DNA of 64,000 nucleotides from an uncultured Planctomycetaceae bacterium (GCA_963813715.1 CAWFAK010000007.1:1053126-1117125), one strand, 5' to 3'; counted from the first letter of the stretch, positions 55,271-64,000 are shown. Program-made: numbers and translations. The notes: generated by a model from the letters alone, not told the origin.

Positions 55271-55292
55271 CTCGGTCCCAAGCTCCCCCTTG
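55271..55292. repeat. REP-like hairpin fragment carrying the target duplication of IS copy 1
   Basis: CTCGGTCC-CAAGCTCCCCCTTG. The last 14 bp are the exact reverse complement of 62809-62822. Confidence 0.85.
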
Positions 55293-56476
55293 AGGGTGTC
55301 CGGGAATTGAATTGAGCTAAACCCAAGGGCCTCCGGGCGTTTATGTTTTTTCTGCCAAGAAGAAACTAAACGCCGCAGGAGGGCCCAAGGATGGGAACTC
55401 GTGCCAAGGCCGGCACGTCGTTGGAAGCGTTGGTCAAGCTGGCGATGCCGCTTTTGAGGGAAGCCGAGCGGCAATGTCCGAGAACAGGGCCGGGAGCAAA
55501 GCCGATCATTCCGGACTGGTTCGTTGGAGTGTTGATTATGGTGGCTGTGCTGAAACGAAAGAAGACCAAGTCCGCCCAATTTCGTTTCGTAACCGACAGC
55601 GCGAACCGGCACAGATTCGAGACCTCACCGGAGAAAAGCAGTTTCCCTCGCGAAGCACGTTTTTCAGTCGGTATCGACGCTGTCATCGGCTCTTTACGGA
55701 GGCCATCAAGCGGCAAGGGCAGCAAGCGATCGCGGAGCAGATCGTCGACGCCAGCCAGGTCGCGGTGGACAAGAGCCTGGTTCCCGCCCGAGGTCGTCCG
55801 TGGCACAAGCACGAAAAGGAAAAGGGGAAGATTCCCCGGGGTGTGGATCGCGAGGCGGCGTGGGGCTACTCCGAACATCACGGCTGGGTCTACGGCTACA
55901 GCTTCGAGGTGGTGGTCTCTTGCAAGCGGAAAAACACGGTGTTTCCGCTGCTGGCTTCGGTGGGAACCGGGAGCGCCGCGGAGGTGCGAACGTTCGCGGA
56001 AAAAATTGACCATTTACCGCGTGAAGTGAAATGCGTCTCAGTGGATAGCGCCTACGACGCAGGTTACCTCGGTGAGCGCATCGAATTTGATCAGGCAGGG
56101 CGGCGGACAGGGCGTCGCTTCTTGTGTCCCGAAAATCCCCGCTACCCTCGCAAAAAGACCAAGCGCTGCGGGGCCGACGCGGCGCGGGCCCACAGCCGCG
56201 AGCTGCGACGAGCCAGAAAGAAGTACTTCGAGAGCGCCGCCGGGCGACGCCTCTATCGACGGCGCAGCCGCACGGTCGAGCCCTTCAACAGCTGGTTGAA
56301 GTCACTCTTCGAACTGGACACGCGTGCGTGGCATCGCGGACTCGTCAACAACCAAACTCAGAATCCTTGCCGCCATCTTCGTGTATCAATTGCTTGTGCG
56401 CTACAACCACCGCTGCGGAAACAACAACGGACGACTTCGTTGGCTCACCGATGCCCTCTGAATTCCCGGACACCCT
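55293..56476 (+). mobile_element. DDE insertion sequence, copy 1 (IS5/IS982/IS1182-like DDE_Tnp_1 clan)
   Basis: Perfect 16-bp TIRs AGGGTGTCCGGGAATT (55293-55308) and its reverse complement (56461-56476). Near-identical inverted copy at 62823-64000. Confidence 0.92.
55391..56461 (+). CDS. DDE transposase (apparent indels near 55610 and 56362)
   Basis: VAVDKS (D), VDSAYD (D), YRRRSRTVEPFNSWLK (E) and WGYSEHHGWVYGY. Confidence 0.88.
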
Positions 56477-56496
56477 CAAGCAGAGCTTGGGACCAA
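56477..56496. repeat. REP-like hairpin fragment of the same family (second target site)
   Basis: CAAGCAGAGCTTGGGACC. Its first 16 bp are the reverse complement of 62700-62714-type CCCAAGCTCTGCTTG. Confidence 0.8.
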
Positions 56497-56523
56497 GAAA
56501 ATCAAAACACTGGCGGACGAGCC

Positions 56524-57852
56524 CACAACTGTCCGGTTAAAAGTCGAAGAGACACAGTTGGTTATGACAAGTGGTTGCCGGGTTTGGAACGGTCTGCTCG
56601 TTTAGCGCTTTAACTAAAGGGGTTTTCTCGAAAAGAGTGACACTCAGAATCTGCAAGATTTCGTAAAGGCTGCGCTGGATCTGGAGTTCGCGTTTCATGA
56701 TCGCCACCAGCACGTAGGTGCTCACCGCGATCCAGAGTTGAGTCTTCACGGCATTGGGTGTGTTCCCCAAGAAGTGCTTGATCCGCAGATGTTGCTTGAC
56801 CCACTTGAAGAACAGTTCGATTCCCCAGCGTCGCCGATACAGTTCGGCGACGGTCCACGCGGGAAGTTCGAAGTGATTGGTGACGAAGGTCAACCGGCGG
56901 CCGGTCTCCAGGTTCAAGTAACGGATCCGACGCAATCGATCGGGATACTTGCGTCGCGTGCGGTGATCCTTGAGAAGCACCGTCTGGTCGCTGCGCAGTC
57001 CCGTCGAGCGGTCCACCATACGCGAGGCCTGCCGGCGGACTGTCAGGTTGCACTTCGCGCGCACCAAAAAGAAGGCCCCCGCGCAGTGGATGCGATGCAG
57101 CCGTCGATAGTCGTTGTAGTCGCGGTCCATCAGATAGAAGGAGCCGGGTTCGATCGGCAGATCGTCCAGCAGAGCGCAGTCCCGCGTTTTTGTGCTGGAA
57201 ACCCGCAGAAAACAGGGAATGTTTCCCCGCAGATCCAACAGCGTGTGGAGTTTGATGCCAGCCTTTTGCCTCTGCGAGTGGGCCCACGGAAACAGCTTCA
57301 GACACAGCTCGATCACGGTCGCGTCGAGCGCATAGGCGGTGTGCTTCAGCTCGATGCCAAGATCGTCGGCCGCGTACAAGGGCCGCGCCCGCTCGATGAG
57401 GGCCAGCCCCAAGTCGCGATAGATTTGCCAGTCGCGCGTTCGGTTGGCGTCGGCCAGGGTGCTGCGCCGATCGCCCCGCGAAACCCGGCGTGGTAAAGCT
57501 TGTCGCTGACGGCCCGCAGACGAATCTCCAGGTCGCGAAGGCTCTCGCGTCCGGTCAGCTGCGCGAACGCCATGGCCAGAAACTGATCGCGACACGAGAA
57601 ACCTCGGACCCGCCGATGTCCTTGATATCGTCTCACGCACGAATCGAAAATCCGCCGCGGGAGAAACTCGAGCAGCTGCGGAAACACCATCTGACCCTCG
57701 TACATGACCTGCCTCCCTCCTGCTGGAATCAGCAGAAAGGATGGTCTCGAAAGCCATCGCAGCTGAAGTCGTGCGCCGCCTGGATCGACGATGAAACTCA
57801 GAATTCATGCGTATTTGCGTCGTGAGAGACTGTCGTTAACCGGACAGTTGTG
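56524..57852 (-). mobile_element. IS4-family insertion sequence with 9-bp TSD
   Basis: 17-bp perfect TIRs CACAACTGTCCGGTTAA (56524-56540 and 57836-57852). Direct repeat GGACGAGCC at 56515-56523 and 57853-57861. Confidence 0.95.
56537..57705 (-). CDS. IS4-family transposase (DUF4372-type N-terminus); apparent frameshift near 57470
   Basis: AFAQLTGRESLRD, ALDATVI, GIKLH, MDRDY and the YREK signature YRRRWGIELFFKWVKQHL. Confidence 0.92.
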
Positions 57853-57907
57853 GGACGAGCCGCCAGTGCCACTCGTGCCTGAAGCCGGCCCCCACTCCAA
57901 TCCGGGA

Positions 57908-57936
57908 TTGACCGAAAGCGGCCGGAAAAGGATCAT
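57908..57936 (+). promoter_or_regulatory. Possible sigma70 promoter of the LPS core operon
   Basis: TTGACC, 17-bp spacer, GATCAT; about 170 bp upstream of hldE. Confidence 0.35.
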
Positions 57937-58100
57937 TTCACTCGCGCTAATCGGCAAAGTCTCGGCCGAAAATCGCCCAACGCGCCCGATTGTCGCAAAG
58001 CTCACACTTGGAACCCGATCAAACCTGGAACCGGCCGGCTCACACCGGCCGCTCGCCTTCGGGGGGCAACGGACGCCTCCCGCAGTGATACCGCAAGGGA

Positions 58101-59626
58101 ATGCGGGCCGTGTCTTATCATTTGATTGATCTCGTCCAGAACCTGGGCCGTCCGCGGATCCTGGTGCTGGGCGATCTGATTCTCGATCGCTACACCTGGG
58201 GCGACGCCGAGCGCATCAGCCAGGAAGCCCCTGTGATTCTGCTCCGCGAGCGCAGCCGCGAGGTGCGCCTGGGCGGAGCGGCGAACGTCGCCAACATGCT
58301 CCGCGGCCTGGAGGCCGACGTGAGCCTGGCCGGCGTGGTCGGCAACGATGCCGACGGCCGCGAGCTGCGAGACGAACTCGAGCGGCAAGGCGTCGATTGC
58401 GCGTCGGTGATCGTCGACCCCGAGCGGCCGACCACGATGAAGGAACGCTTCATCGGCCCGCGCAGCAGCGGCATCCGCATCAGATTCTTCGCGTCGACCG
58501 CGAAGTCCGCCGCCCGCTGCCTGAGCCGGTGGCCGAGCATCTTATTCAATCGCTGCTGGCGACACTGTCGTCACACCAGGCCGTGCTCATTTCCGATTAT
58601 GGCAAAGGCGTGTGCACGCCCGAGGTCTGCCGCCGGCTTATTGCCGCGGCGCGACAAGCGGGGCTGCCGGTGATTGTCGATCCTTCGTCATCGGGGGACT
58701 GCCGGAACTTCGCCGGCGCCACGGCCGTCACGCCCAACCGCATGGAAACCAAGCGGGCGACGGGGCGCGAGATCGCGAAAATCGACGACGCGATCGCCGC
58801 CGGCCGCCGGCTCTGCGCGGACCTGGGGCTCGATCACGCGTTTATCACCCTCGACAGCGACGGTATCGTCGTGGCGCGAGCGGACGGCTCGGCCGAGCAT
58901 CTGGCCACGCGAAAGCGCGAGGTGTACGACATCACGGGCGCCGGCGACATGGTGCTGGCGATGATCGGCGTCGGCGCGGCGGCGGGCATCGCGCCCTTCG
59001 ATCTGGCGCGGTTGGCCAACGTGGCCGGCGGCCTGGAGGTCGAGCAGGTGGGTGTGGTGCCGATTCGTCGCGACGATCTGCTCGCCGATCTCTTCACGGC
59101 AGAGCGGCCGACGGCCGACAAAATCTGCTCGCTCGACGTGCTGGAGCGGCACGTGGCCGCTCGGCGGCGAATGGGCAACCGCATCGTGCTGACGAATGGT
59201 TGCTTCGACCTGCTCCACGTCGGTCATGTGAGCTACCTGCAAGAGGCGGCCCGCGAAGGGGACTGCCTGATCGTCGCCGTCAACAGCGACGCCAGCGTCC
59301 GCCAGCTCGGCAAGGGGCCCGATCGGCCCGTCTTCGCTGAGCAGCAGCGGGCCGCCATGCTGGCCGCGCTCGAGGCCGTCGACTACGTGACCATCTTCGG
59401 AGAGGCGACGCCCCACGCGATTCTGACCCGCTTGAAGCCCGATCTGCTCGTCAAAGGCGGCGGCTACGCGTCGCACGAAATCGTCGGTCACGAGCTGGTC
59501 GAAGCGTACGGCGGACAAGTGAAGGCGCTCGGGCACGTGCCGGGAATCTCGAGCACGATCGTCCTCGAACAACTGCGGAATTCCAAAGACCCGACCTCCA
59601 GCGAGTCCGGAAGGCAGGCCGCATGA
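58101..59626 (+). CDS. hldE: Bifunctional heptose-7-P kinase / heptose-1-P adenylyltransferase (apparent frameshift near 58460)
   Basis: GDLILDRY, RISQEAPV, GGAANVA, SDYGKG and DITGAGD; C-terminal TNGCFDLLHVGH and VKGG. Confidence 0.93.
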
Positions 59627-60669
59627 AAATCGCCCTCTTCCTCCCCAATTGGATTGGCGACGCCGTGATGGCGACGCCGGCCCTGCGGGCGCTGCGGGCG
59701 AAATTTCAAGATGCGGAAATCGTCGGCGTGCTGCGACCACCCATCGGCGACGCGCTCGCCGGACTCAATCACTTCGATCGTATCCTCGAGCATCAGCCGC
59801 ACGGTACGGCCGCCGACGCCCGCGGCTGGCGATTCGTACGACGACTGAAGAGTGAGCAATTCGACTTGGCCGTGCTGTTTCCCAATTCGTTGCGGAGTGC
59901 CGTTGTGGCCCGGCTGGCCGGGATCAAGCGGCGCGTCGGCTTCGCCCGCGACGGTCGACGTTACCTGCTCACCGACGCGCTCGAGCCCAAGCCGCGGGCC
60001 GTTCCGAATCCGGTGCTCGACGAATATCTGCGACTGGCTGGCCATCTCGACTGCGACGTCCGCAACCGGGCGACGCAGGCGGCCGTGCTTCCCGAAGATG
60101 AGCGCGAGCTGGCCCGCTTCTGGAAACCGCATCCGGCCGACTTTCCCACGCGCGGCGTCTTTTGCCTCAATCCGGGCGGAGCGTTCGGGGCGGCCAAGCA
60201 CTGGCCGACGGAAAACTTCGCCGACCTGGCGCGGAGCATCGTCGACCATCTGGGGCGAACTGTATTGGTACTGTGCGGCCCGGCCGAGCGGGAAGAAGCG
60301 CGGAACATCGTCCACCTGGCCTCGCGCGAGCGGGTCGTCAGCCTGGCGGACTTTCGCACGAGCATCGGCCTCACCAAGGCGGCCATTCGCTCAGCCGAAA
60401 TGCTGGTGACGACCGACTCCGGCCCGCGGCACTTCGCCCAGCCGTTCGGCGTGCCCGTGGTAACGATCTTCGGCCCCACGCATCAAAAATGGAGCGACAC
60501 GAACGACGCCCACGCCGTCCATTTGCAAATCCAGGTCGAGTGCGGCCCTTGCCAGCGGCGGACCTGCCCGCTCGGGCATCACCGCTGCATGCAGGACCTG
60601 TCGAGCGAATGGGCCTTCGACGCCGTGATCGCCCAGCTCCTGCGGCACCGCCGGCCCATCGCCGCCTGA
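59623..60669 (+). CDS. waaF: LPS heptosyltransferase II (GT9)
   Basis: PNWIGDAVM, NPGGAFGAAKHWP, TDSGPRH, FGPT and CPLGHHRCM. Confidence 0.9.
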   Translation: MKIALFLPNWIGDAVMATPALRALRAKFQDAEIVGVLRPPIGDALAGLNHFDRILEHQPHGTAADARGWRFVRRLKSEQFDLAVLFPNSLRSAVVARLAGIKRRVGFARDGRRYLLTDALEPKPRAVPNPVLDEYLRLAGHLDCDVRNRATQAAVLPEDERELARFWKPHPADFPTRGVFCLNPGGAFGAAKHWPTENFADLARSIVDHLGRTVLVLCGPAEREEARNIVHLASRERVVSLADFRTSIGLTKAAIRSAEMLVTTDSGPRHFAQPFGVPVVTIFGPTHQKWSDTNDAHAVHLQIQVECGPCQRRTCPLGHHRCMQDLSSEWAFDAVIAQLLRHRRPIAA

Positions 60670-60707
60670 CACATCACACGACCGTAATCCGAAACGAGAA
60701 ACCTCCG

Positions 60708-61855
60708 ATGCGCATCGCCCTAGTGAAACGCCGTTATTCGCTGAAAGTCGGAGGGGCCGAACGCTATTGCGTGAACCTGGCCCGCCGGCTCCGCACATAC
60801 GGCCACGATGTCACCTTCATCGGCGAGTCGATCGATCCCGAGCTGTCGAGCGAAGTCAACTTCGTGCCGATCACGGTCAATCGGCTCACGTCGTGGACCA
60901 AGAATCAGTCGTTCGCCGAAAACACCGGGCGGGCGGTGAAGGAAGGGCGGTTCGACCTGGCCTACGGACTGGGGCGGGCCTTCGAGCTGGACGCCATCCG
61001 CATCACCGACCGGCTGCAGTCGCACTGGCTCAACGTCTATTACCGCAATCCGGCCCACCGCGCGTTGCAAAGGCTCAACCCGCGGCATCGCACGATGATC
61101 GCGCTCGAGCGAACGATTTTTCACTCGTCGAACGTGCGGCGGATCGTCACGCAATCGCGGCTCGATCGCGAGCTGGTCGTCCGCTATTACGGCATTCCCG
61201 AGGAAAAAGTCTGCACGATCTATAACGGCGTCGATCTCAACGTCTTTCATCCGGGCGTGCGGGCCGACCGGAACGATCTGCGGGCCGAGCTGGGCGTCGA
61301 GCCGACGCGGCCGCTCTTGGTGTTCGCCTCGATGGACTTTCAGGGCAAGGGGCTGCGGTCGCTATTGCGGGCCTCGCCATCGCCCGCTCGACACGCGCAT
61401 TGCGGCTGGCCGTCGTCGGCAAGGGGCCCATCTGGCGATTCCGCCGCATGGCCCGGGCACTCGGCGTGGAGGAATCGGTCCTCTTCGTCGGCCACCGCTG
61501 CGACATTCATCGCTTCTACGGCGCGGCCGACCTGTCGCTGATGCCCACCACCTACGAGCCCTTCCCGAACGTGAATCTCGAATCGCTGGCCTGCGGCACG
61601 CCCGCGCTCACCACGTCGACAGCCGGCGGCGCCGACCTGATCGAGGACGGCAAGACGGGCTACCTCGTCTCGAACGTCCACGCGATCGAAGAGATTGCCG
61701 AGCGGATCGACGGATATTTTTCGCTGAGCTCGGCCGAGCGGGCCGTGATGTCGGCTGCCTGCTGGGACAAGGCCCAACAGATGACAGTGGAGAAAAACGC
61801 CCGCGAGACATGCGAGCTGTTCGAAGAGGTGCTGCGTGAAAAGTTTCGCGTTTGA
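60708..61855 (+). CDS. Glycosyltransferase family 4, WaaG-like (apparent frameshift near 61372)
   Basis: GGAERY, IYNGVD and PTTYEPFPNVNLESLACG. Confidence 0.88.
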
Positions 61856-62659
61856 CGGCTGGGACGGCGGACGCCTGACCGTCAATCGCGAGTTCGCCCC
61901 TCTGCTGACGCAGCATGCGTTGACGACGTTCGACGCCATCGCCAACTTCGCCGGGGGCCGCGTCGCCAAAAACGTCCTCCGCGAGCGGACGACCACGCGG
62001 CTCGACCTGGCCGACGGCAACGGCGCGTCGCGCACACTCTATTTAAAACGGCACCAGCGGCCCAGCGCGTGGGAGCTGGTGAAGCCGCTGTTCCGCTTGG
62101 CGCGGCCTATCGTCGGCGCCCGCAACGAGTGGGAGGCCATTCTGCGCTTCCACGAGAGCGGCATCGCCACGATGGTCCCCGTCGCGCTGGGCGAGTCGGG
62201 CAGCCGCTCATTTCTCGTGACGCAAGGCATCGAAGACTGCGAGAAGCTCACGGCCTGGATGCAGGCGCATCGGCATGCGCTACATAACGGCCAGCTCGCC
62301 GCGCTGCGCGACATCGTCGCCGGCGTGGCCGACGTGGCCCGCACGATGCACGCGGCTGGACTGCATCACCAGGATTTTTATCTCACGCATCTGATGGTGC
62401 CGCAACGCGGCCCGGCCGCTCCGATCCACGTGCTCGATCTGGGCCGGGTCCGTTTTCAGCCGCGGCTGGCCCGCCGCTGGATCGTGAAGGACCTGGCGCA
62501 GCTCAACTTCTCGGCCGCCGGCGTCTCGGCCAGCGACCGGCTGCGATTTCTCGGCGCTACCTCGGCCACCGACCAACGCGCAACGACCGCGCACTCGTGA
62601 CGCGGATTGTGCGCAAGTCCCGCGCTATCGCCCGCCACACGCAAAAGAACGGCCTCTGA
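61836..62659 (+). CDS. Lipopolysaccharide kinase (WaaP/InaA/Kdo family); apparent frameshift near 62555
   Basis: LYLKRH, ARNEW, HQDFYLTH, LDLGR and KDLAQL. Confidence 0.88.
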
Positions 62660-62693
62660 GCAGCCGCGCGGCTGGCGCGCGTCATTCGACTCT

Positions 62694-62822
62694 CTCGGAC
62701 CCAAGCTCTGCTTGGGACCGCACGTCCTCGAAGCTTCCGCTTCGATTCTTCTCGCTTCCGAACTCACTGGCTTCGCCACCGACGCAGAGCTTCGGGTAGG
62801 TGCGGCCCCAAGGGGGAGCTTG
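62694..62822. repeat. Composite REP/REPIN-like inverted repeat, truncated by IS copy 2
   Basis: Left arm CTCGGACCCAAGCTCTGCTTGGGACCGCAC...CGAAGCTTCCGCTTCG. Right arm CGACGCAGAGCTTCG...GTGCGGCCCCAAGGGGGAGCTTG. Confidence 0.85.
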
Positions 62823-64000
62823 AGGGTGTCCGGGAATTCAGAGGGCATCGGTGAGCCAACGAAGTCGTCCGTTGTTGTTTCCGCAGCGGTGGTTGTAGCG
62901 CACAAGCAATTGATACACGAAGATGGCGGCAAGGATCTGAGTTTGGTTGTTGACGAGTCCGCGATGCCACGCACGCGTGTCCAGTTCGAAGAGTGACTTC
63001 AACCAGCTGTTGAAGGGCTCGACCGTGCGGCTGCGCCGTCGATAGAGGCGTCGCCCGGCGGCGCTCTCGAAGTACTTCTTTCTGGCTCGTCGCAGCTCGC
63101 GGCTGTGGGCCCGCGCCGCGTCGGCCCCGCAGCGCTTGGTCTTTTTGCGAGGGTAGCGGGGATTTTCGGGACACAAGAAGCGACGCCCTGTCCGCCGCCC
63201 TGCCTGATCAAATTCGATGCGCTCACCGAGGTAACCTGCGTCGTAGGCGCTATCCACTGAGACGCATTTCACTTCACGCGGTAAATGGTCAATTTTTTCC
63301 GCGAACGTTCGCACCTCCGCGGCGCTCCCGGTTCCCACCGAAGCCAGCAGCGGAAACACCGTGTTTTTCCGCTTGCAAGAGACCACCACCTCGAAGCTGT
63401 AGCCGTAGACCCAGCCGTGATGTTCGGAGTAGCCCCACGCCGCCTCGCGATCCACACCCCGGGGAATCTTCCCCTTTTCCTTTTCGTGCTTGTGCCACGG
63501 ACGACCTCGGGCGGGAACCAGGCTCTTGTCCACCGCGACCTGGCTGGCGTCGACGATCTGCTCCGCGATCGCTTGCTGCCCTTGCCGCTTGATGGCCTCC
63601 GTAAAGAGCCGATGACAGCGTCGATACCGACTGAAAAACGTGCTTCGCGAGGGAAACTGCTTTTCTCCGGTGAGGTCTCGAATCTGGCCGGTTCGCGCTG
63701 TCGGTTACGAAACGAAATTGGGCGGACTTGGTCTTCTTTCGTTTCAGCACAGCCACCATAATCAACACTCCAACGAACCAGTCCGGAATGATCGGCTTTG
63801 CTCCCGGCCCTGTTCTCGGACATTGCCGCTCGGCTTCCCTCAAAAGCGGCATCGCCAGCTTGACCAACGCTTCCAACGACGTGCCGGCCTTGGCACGAGT
63901 TCCCATCCTTGGGCCCTCCTGCGGCGTTTAGTTTCTTCTTGGCAGAAAAAACGTCAACGCCCGGAGGCCCTGGGTTTAGCTCAATTCAATTCCCGGACAC
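62823..64000 (-). mobile_element. DDE insertion sequence, copy 2 (inverted; last ~3 bp beyond the window)
   Basis: TIR at 62823-62838 and AATTCCCGGACAC at the window end; nearly identical to 55293-56476. Confidence 0.92.
62838..63906 (-). CDS. DDE transposase, copy 2 (apparent indel near 63685)
   Basis: Same protein as copy 1; intact C-terminus QILAAIFVYQLL...WLTDAL. Confidence 0.88.

What the first reader, a model, noticed from the sequence alone, without database searches (positions are those of the whole stretch)
55279..56489. A DDE insertion sequence that appears to target REP-like hairpins, with ends continuous with the REP stem
Seen: all three visible IS junctions abut CTTG/CAAG, the stem of the palindrome GGnCCCAAG-loop-CTTGGGnCC. 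They come from two REP copies with different loops (CTCCCC and CAGAG). The duplicated segment is stem+loop+stem (14 and 13 bp). If CTTG belongs to the TIR, it is only the loop (6 and 5 bp). Either way the duplication length tracks the loop length, which suggests recognition of the palindrome arms or the hairpin structure rather than a fixed stagger. Established: REP targeting is documented for IS1397 (IS3 family) and IS621 (IS110 family), and IS1182-family elements favour palindromes. Inference: this ~356-aa transposase may be a poorly described REP-homing element.
Basis: partly seen in the sequence, partly recalled or inferred. Interest (0 to 1): 0.8.

Follow-up and report, generated by a model that had tools for sequence, protein, structure and literature searches.

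The report
Insertion sequence homing to REP-like hairpins
This is a 1.2-kb jumping gene from an unnamed transposase lineage that always lands at the same spot in one small DNA hairpin repeat and duplicates the hairpin's tip, which is a clear new example of a behaviour already known from other insertion sequences.

Summary
Window 55292-56477 is a 1186-bp insertion sequence (ISa) with perfect 17-bp inverted ends (GAGGGTGTCCGGGAATT). It carries a 356-aa DDE transposase gene, broken here by two frameshifts and intact in another copy. All 22 readable ISa-type junction flanks (9 in this genome, 13 in metagenome contigs) lie at one position in a hairpin, (G)GnCCC^AAG-loop-CTT^GGGnC(C). Three complete copies carry perfect 11-bp repeats (AAG plus a 5-nt loop plus CTT). 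The window's two copies share a 12-bp version with a 6-nt loop, split between them by a rearrangement. Three empty sites show the intact hairpin. The nucleotides outside GAGGG vary with the target, so CTT/AAG come from the target, not the element. The duplication therefore equals loop plus 6.

The transposase has a DDE_Tnp_1 domain and is closest to IS1182, but it is far below every NCBIfam family cut-off. More distant relatives elsewhere make 8-bp palindromic duplications in AT-rich sites.

The behaviour has precedents: IS186 (GGGG-N6/7-CCCC with the core duplicated), hairpin targeting by IS1182-family IS1272, and REP targeting by IS3, IS4, IS5, IS110 and IS256 elements. The hairpin family is low-copy. 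Verdict: a real, well-supported new member of a known kind, of moderate interest.

The parts
55274..55291 (+). Left half of an interrupted REP1 hairpin: arm GGTCCC, then AAG-CTCCCC-CTT. It lies 37 nt after the stop codon of an alpha/beta-hydrolase gene.
   Evidence: Read directly. The same arm and context lie downstream of the orthologous gene in a same-genus genome.
55292..56477 (+). ISa, 1186 bp, with perfect 17-bp terminal inverted repeats at 55292-55308 and 56461-56477.
   Evidence: the inverted repeats. Searches show six copies in the genome: 5 at 99% identity or more and 1 at 86%.
55391..56461 (+). Transposase gene, here a pseudogene. One base is missing near 55610 and one extra A is at 56362, relative to the intact 356-aa copy (P0001). 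The stop codon abuts the right inverted repeat.
   Evidence: DDE_Tnp_1 at E 1.4e-9 and DDE_Tnp_1_6 at 27.8 bits.
56478..56494 (+). Right half of a different REP1 hairpin: AAG-CAGAG-CTT, then arm GGGACC.
   Evidence: The paralogous empty site with the whole hairpin is at C12:6201-6223.
56524..57852 (-). ISd, an unrelated IS4-family element. It encodes a 423-aa transposase, has the inverted repeat CACAACTGTCCGGTTAA, and makes a 9-bp duplication GGACGAGCC at 56515-56523 and 57853-57861. It sits at the centre of another hairpin repeat, CACTGGCGG-ACGAG-CCGCCAGTG.
   Evidence: (NF033592 at 215.8 bits, cut-off 115).
62697..62719 (+). Unoccupied REP1 hairpin GGACCCAAG CTCTG CTTGGGACC, followed by a companion hairpin CGAAGC-TTCC-GCTTCG.
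   Evidence: It folds at -10.6 kcal/mol with z -5.4, and 0 of 200 shuffles fold as well.
62804..62821 (+). REP1 half, GGCCCC AAG GGGGAG CTT, abutting the right end of the second ISa copy. In the element's orientation it reads AAG CTCCCC CTT GGGGCC and is the partner of 55274-55291.
62822..64000 (-). Second ISa copy, in inverted orientation and cut by the end of the contig and window.

Best explanation
ISa is an insertion sequence of the IS4/IS5/IS1182 type, with a DDE transposase and terminal inverted repeats. Its transposase directs insertion to one specific palindromic repeat (REP1), (G)GnCCCAAG-loop-CTTGGGnC(C). Shown: the element's two ends are joined between CCC and AAG on each strand of the palindrome, so repair of the staggered gaps duplicates the hairpin tip, AAG+loop+CTT. 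Shown: the cut positions are fixed relative to the arms and not to each other, so the duplication is 11 bp with 5-nt loops and 12 bp with a 6-nt loop. The apparent continuity of the element's ends with the stem is 1 nt of ambiguity (G and C) plus target-derived CTT/AAG. Inferred: movement is cut-and-paste. Inferred, at roughly 60:40 over cruciform recognition: a symmetric transposase complex reads the two arm sequences in ordinary duplex DNA and tolerates a spacing change of 1 bp, as IS186 does. The window copy itself is a frameshifted, probably non-autonomous copy whose two flanks come from two different REP1 sites. The most likely cause is an inversion, by homologous recombination or intramolecular transposition, between it and the inverted copy 6.3 kb away.
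For: Specificity. All 22 ISa-type junction flanks are REP1 at the same nucleotide: 9 in this genome and 13 in metagenome loci L044-L054. Some are orthologous or paralogous repeats of one site: L048-R equals L046-R, L044-R equals C14-R, and C12-R is a paralogue of C7b-R. Only 9 strict CCCAAG-N2-10-CTTGGG sites remain unoccupied in 7.49 Mb, and only 3 of them are hairpin-repeat copies by context.

Duplications. Perfect 11-bp repeats are present at C14 and C5 (AAGCGGAGCTT) and at L046 (AAGCAGAGCTT). A 12-bp AAGCTCCCCCTT is shared by junctions 1 and 3 of the window. An 85%-identical relative in a different imperfect hairpin has a perfect 12-bp repeat (L047).

Empty sites. C12:6201 is the paralogue of the window's right junction. 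C12:6298 and C14:39273 are empty in this genome but filled in metagenome loci L051 and L052, and the homology starts exactly at AAG. A same-genus genome has the orthologous REP1 after the same hydrolase gene, without ISa. The hairpin is therefore a target and is not carried by the element.

Where the element ends. The end GAGGG is conserved in relatives that sit in unrelated targets. L045 has CGT|GAGGG. A related 160-bp miniature element has a perfect 12-bp repeat that starts with G and ends with T, so the flanking T/A is not part of the inverted repeat.

Both orientations of ISa relative to the REP1 unit occur, as expected for a symmetric target.

The transposase is intact in copy C14, with a DDE_Tnp_1 domain. 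Conserved D127, D219, E297 and K304 appear in a 14-member alignment.

Precedent for arm-defined, variable duplications: IS186, GGGG(N6/N7)CCCC (passages of PMC5009759).
Against: The 12-bp case in ISa proper rests on pairing two junctions of two different copies. No undisturbed 12-bp pair was found for ISa itself. A synteny test of the inversion in a related genome was uninformative.

Of the 5 both-flank ISa copies, 3 have perfect repeats (C14, C5, L046). The other 2, L044 and L045, have mismatched flanks, which I attribute to recombination or chimeric assembly without proof.

Most metagenome loci come from close relatives of this genome: where their flanks match it at all, identity is 73-100%, and L045's flanks have only a 41-nt match. 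They are separate sites but not separate lineages.

Because the target is palindromic, the exact element boundary cannot be fixed from ISa copies alone, since all 22 flanks have T before GAGGG.

Nothing computational separates duplex-sequence recognition from hairpin or cruciform recognition. Insertion into sites with an imperfect inner stem (AAG/CCT at L051; AAG/TTT at L049 and L053) mildly favours duplex reading.
Confidence: 0.8

Rival explanations
1. Structure-guided insertion. The transposase recognises the extruded hairpin or cruciform rather than the arm sequence, and joins the element's ends on the 5' side of the stem. This would be the duplicating counterpart of the hairpin-replacing transposition proposed for IS1272.
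For: Wan et al. 2017 (PMC5678879; abstract and the first part of the Discussion read) predict exactly this outcome: duplication of the stem-loop if the ends join at the 5' foot. The closest named family, IS1182, contains hairpin-targeting IS1272 (PMC4923244 passages). In this genome, different members and derivatives of the family sit symmetrically in three different hairpins with different sequences. ISa is in REP1. ISb is in CACGGTTGAGC-AA-GCTCAACCGTG with a 10-bp repeat. Miniature elements are in ATGCCC^AC-N8-GT^GGGCAT with 12-bp repeats. REP1 folds stably.
Against: More distant relatives insert in 8-bp AT-rich quasi-palindromes (AACTAGTT, ATATATAT, ACTTAACT) that cannot extrude. One miniature element has a perfect 12-bp repeat in a site that is not a full hairpin (C5:1413583). 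ISa uses REP1 copies with mismatched inner stems. ISa ignores the companion hairpin CGAAGC-NNN-GCTTCG, which shares the AAGC-NNN-GCTT core, in 0 of 22 junctions. That points to sequence reading of CCC/GGG.
Confidence: 0.25
2. CTTG/CAAG is part of a 21-bp inverted repeat, and only the loop (5 or 6 nt) is duplicated.
For: All 22 ISa flanks read ..T|GAGGG, and most read CTT|GAGGG. The palindromic target makes this reading formally consistent with every empty site.
Against: A 99%-identical copy has CGT|GAGGG (L045-L). Several flanks read differently in the element's orientation: L049 and L053 have CCCTC|AAG..TTT GGG, and L051 has ..CCT GGG. The 85% relative L047 has CCCTC|AGT on the right. ISb has CTC/GAG there, matching its own target stem. 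Relatives in unrelated sites keep only GAGGG.
Confidence: 0.06
3. There is no transposase specificity. Insertions are random, and only those in harmless extragenic hairpins survive selection, or hairpins attract any element through a host factor.
For: Hairpin repeats in this genome carry other, unrelated elements. The IS4-family ISd sits at the centre of a REP3 hairpin. A 787-bp element occupies the loop of the orthologous REP1 in a same-genus genome.
Against: Survivorship cannot place 22 of 22 junctions at the same phosphodiester bond of one rare hairpin type. This genome also has 118 strict copies of another hairpin repeat and much other intergenic DNA.
Confidence: 0.03

Closest known systems
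IS186 (IS4 family, E. coli)
   Same: It has a DDE_Tnp_1-type transposase. Its target is a short palindromic pair of arms, GGGG...CCCC, around a core whose length varies (6 or 7 bp, rarely 4 or 5), and the core is what is duplicated. The motif is rare in the genome and is hit in both orientations (PMC5009759, passages read).
   Different: In IS186 the arms lie outside the duplication and the target is not a repeat family. ISa duplicates 3 bp of each arm plus the loop (11-12 bp) and its target is a dispersed hairpin repeat. The ISa transposase gives no hit to any IS4 model at E up to 1.
IS1272 and the IS1182 family
   Same: The best NCBIfam match of all 14 aligned family members is the IS1182 model, and the C-terminal DDE_Tnp_1_6 domain is present. 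IS1272 and TnSha1 insert into the stems of hairpins. Papers citing the 2015 review by Siguier et al. say some IS1182 members target palindromes, and ISfinder is quoted as listing direct repeats of 2-60 bp.
   Different: IS1272 deletes the hairpin tip and makes no duplication, and it shows no primary-sequence specificity. ISa duplicates the tip and is sequence-restricted. ISa's protein is 356 aa against a 488-position model, scores 54 bits against a cut-off of 270, and matches only the C-terminal third.
ISRm22 (IS4 family, Sinorhizobium meliloti) and other REP-targeting elements listed by Tobes and Pareja 2006
   Same: All copies lie in REP sequences at one fixed point on the palindrome axis, with a short direct repeat. 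Hybrid copies with mismatched repeats are explained there by recombination between copies. ISRm22 has a PF01609-type transposase (PMC1525189, passages read).
   Different: ISRm22 makes a fixed 6-bp repeat. ISa's repeat is 11-12 bp and depends on the loop. ISa's hairpin family is low-copy.
IS1397 / ISKpn1 (IS3 family) and IS621 / ISPpu9 / ISPpu10 (IS110 family)
   Same: They home specifically to REP or BIME palindromes.
   Different: They use unrelated transposases. The IS3 elements have two reading frames and 3-4-bp repeats in the loop (the 3-4-bp figure is recalled). The IS110 elements are DEDD enzymes guided by a bridge or seek RNA and lack inverted repeats (abstracts). ISa has classical inverted repeats and a single DDE reading frame.

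Membership tests
IS1182 family | Transposase reaches the NCBIfam NF033551 cut-off (270 bits) | tested here: not met
   P0001 scores 54.1 bits, E 1.2e-14, and only residues 242-334 match model positions 365-482 of 488. All 14 aligned members hit this model best, and all are below the cut-off. The same model finds no match over its cut-off anywhere in this genome.
IS1182 family | C-terminal DDE_Tnp_1_6 domain (PF13751) | tested here: met
   P0001 scores 27.8 bits against a gathering score of 25.1. Twelve of 14 members match at E up to 0.01.
IS1182 family | N-terminal DUF772 (PF05598) domain and a protein of about 450-580 aa (recalled as typical, not from a call) | tested here: not met
   No PF05598 hit at E up to 1. 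The protein is 356 aa, and the 120 listed homologues are 308-358 aa.
IS1182 family | Palindromic targets and direct repeats of variable length | tested here: met
   Repeats are 11 and 12 bp in ISa, 10 bp in ISb and 8 bp in relatives, all in dyad-symmetric sites. The family trait is quoted.
IS4 family | Match to an IS4 transposase model, and the Y-(2)-R-(3)-E-(6)-K signature (signature recalled) | tested here: not met
   No IS4 model among the hits at E up to 1, whereas the neighbouring ISd scores 215.8 bits on NF033592. The conserved residues Y289, R292, E297 and K304 give Y-2-R-4-E-6-K, one residue off.
IS982 family | Transposase model NF033520 (cut-off 130 bits) and inverted repeats ending 5'-AC | tested here: not met
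   The score is 31.2 bits. ISa's ends are GAGGG. The AC rule is from PMC7335449.
REP (repetitive extragenic palindrome) | Short G+C-rich imperfect palindrome able to form a hairpin, lying outside genes | tested here: met
   Fold energy is -10.6 kcal/mol with z -5.4. Compensatory arm variants occur: GGTCCC/GGGACC, GTTCCC/GGGAAC, GGCCCC/GGGGCC. The inspected copies follow gene ends or lie in clusters with other hairpins.
REP (repetitive extragenic palindrome) | High copy number (usually more than 100 per genome; PMC2817692 abstract) | tested here: not met
   There are 9 strict copies, of which 3 are clearly of the repeat type. The relaxed pattern gives 35 against 32 in a reversed-genome control. 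About 10 empty plus 5-6 occupied copies are recognisable by context. By contrast, REP3 (CACTGGCGG-N5-CCGCCAGTG) has 118 strict copies against 0 in the control.
REP-homing insertion sequences (functional kind) | All or nearly all copies interrupt the repeat at one fixed position, and empty copies of the repeat exist | tested here: met
   All 22 junction flanks meet this. Three empty sites were matched to filled ones.

The most novel reading that the evidence does not exclude
The roughly 356-aa transposases form an undescribed insertion-sequence family, centred on Planctomycetota, in which the target's dyad symmetry sets the positions of strand transfer rather than a fixed protein-imposed stagger. 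The duplication is then whatever lies between the two half-sites: 8 bp in simple palindromes and 10-13 bp when a loop intervenes. Recognition may be of an extruded hairpin. That would make this the naturally occurring 'stem-loop duplicating' pathway that was only drawn as a hypothetical alternative for IS1272. Different family members in one genome would then have each specialised on a different hairpin repeat.
Probability: 0.25. Interest if true: 0.65.

Novelty: new member of a known kind. Interest (0 to 1): 0.42.

Why it matters
It adds a clean, well-documented case of a DDE element that lands only in a harmless extragenic hairpin. It comes from a transposase lineage that current NCBI family models do not name, and from a phylum whose mobile elements are little studied. 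The family counts 544 clusters at 50% identity with E up to 0.001, and 73 with E up to 1e-30, among 1.84 billion representatives. Because the loop length changes the duplication length, the element is a natural test bed for how a DDE transposase complex measures the stagger between its two strand transfers. It also allows a test of whether such a complex can read DNA structure. In practice, knowing the true ends (GAGGG...CCCTC) and the target helps annotation. It also explains assembly breaks: three of the six copies lie at contig ends. Finally, it explains local rearrangements such as the inverted 6.3-kb segment in this window.

Tried and rejected
1. I looked for multi-copy relatives in five other genomes to get more duplication statistics. 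Each had one element, some of them broken, so nothing was gained.

2. A protein search of the plasmid collection gave one weak hit (30% identity, annotated only as 'transposase') and no family name. The ESM Atlas gave only 'Transposase DDE domain-containing protein'.

3. I tested the inversion hypothesis by synteny. The same-genus genome G007 has the hydrolase gene and REP1, but its downstream neighbour corresponds to C12:~30600 of this genome. It matches neither candidate flank, so the test was uninformative.

4. I considered that the hairpin halves are the element's own long ends. This is rejected because intact single hairpins exist at paralogous and orthologous empty sites. The loops also differ between copies whose interiors are 99-100% identical.

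5. I considered that the empty hairpins are excision footprints. This is rejected because the 9-13-bp arms, the companion hairpin and the spacer are conserved outside the duplicated segment.

6. I considered programmed frameshifting for the broken gene. This is rejected because copy C14 has one uninterrupted 356-aa frame.

7. A relaxed REP1 pattern census is no better than its control (35 versus 32), so I use context and not the pattern for copy counts.

8. The script paired the wrong outer end for L040, and L022 has only 3 nt of left flank. Both are counted among the 11 of 17 loci with no repeat.

ISfinder and TnPedia could not be consulted, and no supplementary files were opened.

Full report
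WHAT IS THERE. The window holds three perfect copies of the 17-mer GAGGGTGTCCGGGAATT, at 55292(+), 56477(-) and 62822(+). Shuffles expect 0.22, and 0 of 100 reached 3. The first two bound a 1186-bp element, ISa (55292-56477). The third is the right end of a second, inverted copy that runs off the contig at 64000.

The window is the end of contig C7 of an 18-contig, 7.49-Mb genome. BLAST against that genome finds six ISa-type copies. Five are 99-100% identical (C7a, which is the finding, plus C7b, C14, C5 and C10), and one is 86% identical (C12). There are also four copies of a sister element, ISb, about 69% identical in the 3' part. Three ISa copies lie at contig ends.

Copy C14 has one open 356-aa frame (P0001). 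Relative to it, the window copy has one base missing plus a substitution near 55610, and one extra A at 56362. Copy C5 shares the first lesion. The window copy is therefore a pseudogene with intact ends.

THE JUNCTIONS. On the strand where the end reads GAGGG, every flank reads ...[G/T][G/T]nCCCA[A]G-loop-C[T/G]T|GAGGG. This holds for all 22 ISa-type junction flanks. Nine are in this genome and 13 are in metagenome loci L044-L054, whose transposase matches are 97-100% identical to P0001. My regex flagged L049 and L053 as 'other' only because they read AAA for AAG. Three pairs are the same or a homologous site: L048-R and L046-R, L044-R and C14-R, C12-R and C7b-R. Both orientations of ISa relative to the neighbouring companion hairpin occur.

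Among copies with both flanks, C14 and C5 have the perfect repeat AAGCGGAGCTT and L046 has AAGCAGAGCTT, each 11 bp. L044 and L045 have mismatched flanks. The window copy has the loop CTCCCC on the left and CAGAG on the right.

The left flank of the window copy and the right flank of the inverted second copy share AAGCTCCCCCTT (12 bp, or 14 with the ambiguous C and G). The simplest history is one insertion into a 6-nt-loop hairpin, a second insertion into a CAGAG hairpin 5 kb away, and an inversion between the two inverted copies. Tobes and Pareja explain hybrid ISRm22 copies in the same way. I could not confirm this by synteny.

THE HAIRPIN IS A TARGET AND IS NOT PART OF THE ELEMENT. Window 56478-56523 plus 57853-62821 is duplicated in inverted order at C12:6217-1187 (96.7% over 5000 bp). 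There the CAGAG/CTCTG hairpin is whole, at C12:6201-6223.

Two metagenome junctions, L051-R and L052-R, map to C12:6298 and C14:39273 of this genome. Those sites carry whole hairpins and no element, and the homology begins exactly at AAG.

A same-genus genome, G007, has the orthologous hydrolase gene (90% identity over 588 nt) followed by the same arm, ctcctcGGTCCCAAG. There the arm is interrupted in the loop by an unrelated 787-bp element. An unoccupied copy in the window (62697-62719) folds at -10.6 kcal/mol, z -5.4.

WHERE THE ELEMENT ENDS. A palindromic target makes the boundary ambiguous. For C14, the element boundary could be moved outward by 0-4 nt, giving repeats of 11, 9, 7, 5 or 3 bp, or inward by 1 nt, giving 13.

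Three observations place the end at GAGGG. First, relatives in unrelated targets conserve GAGGG and nothing beyond it. Second, a 99% copy has CGT|GAGGG (L045), and the 85% relative L047 has CCCTC|AGT. Third, a 160-bp miniature element with related ends has a perfect 12-bp repeat, GAATTTCCGCGT, whose outer bases are not complementary.

So CTT/AAG are target bases. Both strands are joined at CCC^AAG, and the duplication is loop plus 6. Whatever boundary is chosen, the 5-nt-loop and 6-nt-loop sites differ by one base pair.

THE FAMILY. P0001 has a DDE_Tnp_1 domain (E 1.4e-9) and a DDE_Tnp_1_6 domain (27.8 bits against 25.1). Its best NCBIfam hit is IS1182, at 54 bits against a cut-off of 270 and over the C-terminal third only. 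IS982 scores 31 bits. There are no IS4 hits. All 14 aligned members behave alike.

Homologues are about 356 aa and unnamed. At 50% clustering there are 544 representatives with E up to 0.001 and 73 with E up to 1e-30. Most titled genome hits are Planctomycetota.

Of 17 both-flank loci outside this genome, 5 have exact repeats of 8 bp or more: 8 bp at L021 ACTTAACT, L024 ATATATAT and L031 AACTAGTT, 11 bp at L046, and 12 bp at L047. One locus has a 2-bp repeat and 11 have none. Single flanks of distant relatives mostly begin A-N-N-T-A. The family norm therefore looks like an 8-bp AT-rich quasi-palindrome, although only 3 of the 13 distant loci (L017-L041) show it perfectly.

In this genome ISb sits in the palindrome CACGGTTGAGC-AA-GCTCAACCGTG inside a miniature element, with a 10-bp repeat. 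That repeat is perfect in two copies, and six empty copies show a 10-bp overlap. The 150-160-bp miniature elements with GAGACYGTCCGGKAATT ends sit in ATGCCC^AC-N8-GT^GGGCAT with 12-bp repeats, two of them perfect and one with a single mismatch. Only ISa and ISb encode this transposase here.

HOW IT MOST LIKELY WORKS. A symmetric transposase complex captures the palindrome, and each half attacks 5' of A in CCC^A on its strand. Because the half-sites, and not a rigid stagger, fix the positions, the duplicated tip grows with the loop.

I favour reading of duplex sequence, at about 60:40, for three reasons. Distant relatives use palindromes too short to extrude. ISa accepts hairpins with mismatched inner stems. 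ISa never uses the companion hairpin that shares the AAGC-NNN-GCTT core.

Cruciform recognition is not excluded. It is the outcome predicted by 'pathway b' of Wan et al.. Cut-and-paste chemistry is inferred from the family only.

COMPARISON AND NOVELTY. Arm-defined variable duplications are documented for IS186: 41 sites with a 6-bp core and 16 with a 7-bp core among 59. Hairpin-stem targeting is documented for IS1272 and TnSha1 of the IS1182 family, with deletion instead of duplication. REP homing at the palindrome axis is documented for elements of five families, including PF01609-type ISRm22.

My literature searches found no description of this transposase lineage or of this hairpin target. 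I searched for insertion sequences targeting REPs, IS1182 family with palindromic targets, IS186 target sites, REP sequences as DNA targets, and Planctomycetes with ISfinder. ISfinder itself was not available.

The hairpin family fails the usual high-copy criterion for REPs. However, it lies in mosaic clusters with an abundant repeat, REP3, which has 118 strict copies against 0 in the control.

I file ISa as a new member of the known kind 'palindrome- or REP-homing DDE insertion sequences'. It is not a member of any named family by the models tested.

Noticed in passing
window 56515-57861: ISd is a single-copy IS4-family element (56524-57852, 423-aa transposase). It has a 9-bp duplication, GGACGAGCC, and lies exactly at the centre of a hairpin repeat, CACTGGCGG-ACGAG-CCGCCAGTG. 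That repeat (REP3) has 118 strict copies in the genome against 0 in a reversed control. A second, unrelated transposase family therefore also sits symmetrically in a hairpin here.
   Followed up: partly
window 56478-64000 and G000:C12:1-6223: The 5-kb segment between the two ISa copies is duplicated in inverted order at the start of contig C12 (96.7% identity). An 86%-identical ISa variant lies there at the same hairpin junction, so the element is more diverged than its flank. Possible explanations are independent insertion at the same site, gene conversion of the C7 copy, or two strain variants in the assembly. This is unresolved.
   Followed up: partly
G000:C8:601683-602530: A Y1_Tnp (PF01797) gene at C8:601996-602223 is flanked by copies of the hairpin ATGCCCAC-N8-GTGGGCAT. 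One is at 601683. The other starts at 602351 and is interrupted by a 150-bp miniature element. This looks like a REP-associated tyrosine transposase with its own repeats.
   Followed up: partly
G000, e.g. C8:602369-602518, C5:1413583-1413742, C8:24745-24903: These are 150-160-bp miniature inverted-repeat elements with ends GAGACYGTCCGGKAATT, which match 14 of the 17 positions of ISa's end. They carry 12-bp duplications, mostly in the ATGCCCAC hairpin. No autonomous partner is present in the genome, so they may be moved by the ISa or ISb transposase.
   Followed up: partly
L040:1390-2500: An ISb-like element in another MAG is flanked by GAGCAAGCTC on the left and GAGCTTGCTC on the right. The two flanks are reverse complements and differ only in the central AA/TT. 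This could be a loop flip, recombination between oppositely oriented copies, or a mechanistic signature. It is unexplained.
   Followed up: no
L065:2083-2870 (genome G007): The orthologous REP1 hairpin after the same hydrolase gene carries a 787-bp element with roughly 30-bp imperfect inverted repeats (TCCCGAGGATTTT.CATGAA...). Its 246-aa reading frame has no Pfam or NCBIfam hit at E up to 0.001.
   Followed up: partly
L044:1-500: In a metagenome contig, the left neighbour of an ISa copy is the end of another multi-copy repeat that is 100% identical to five or more places in this genome (C9:9453-9813, C8:126609-126969, C7:321770-322130 and others). It abuts the REP1 arm, so the hairpin clusters collect several mobile elements.
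   Followed up: no
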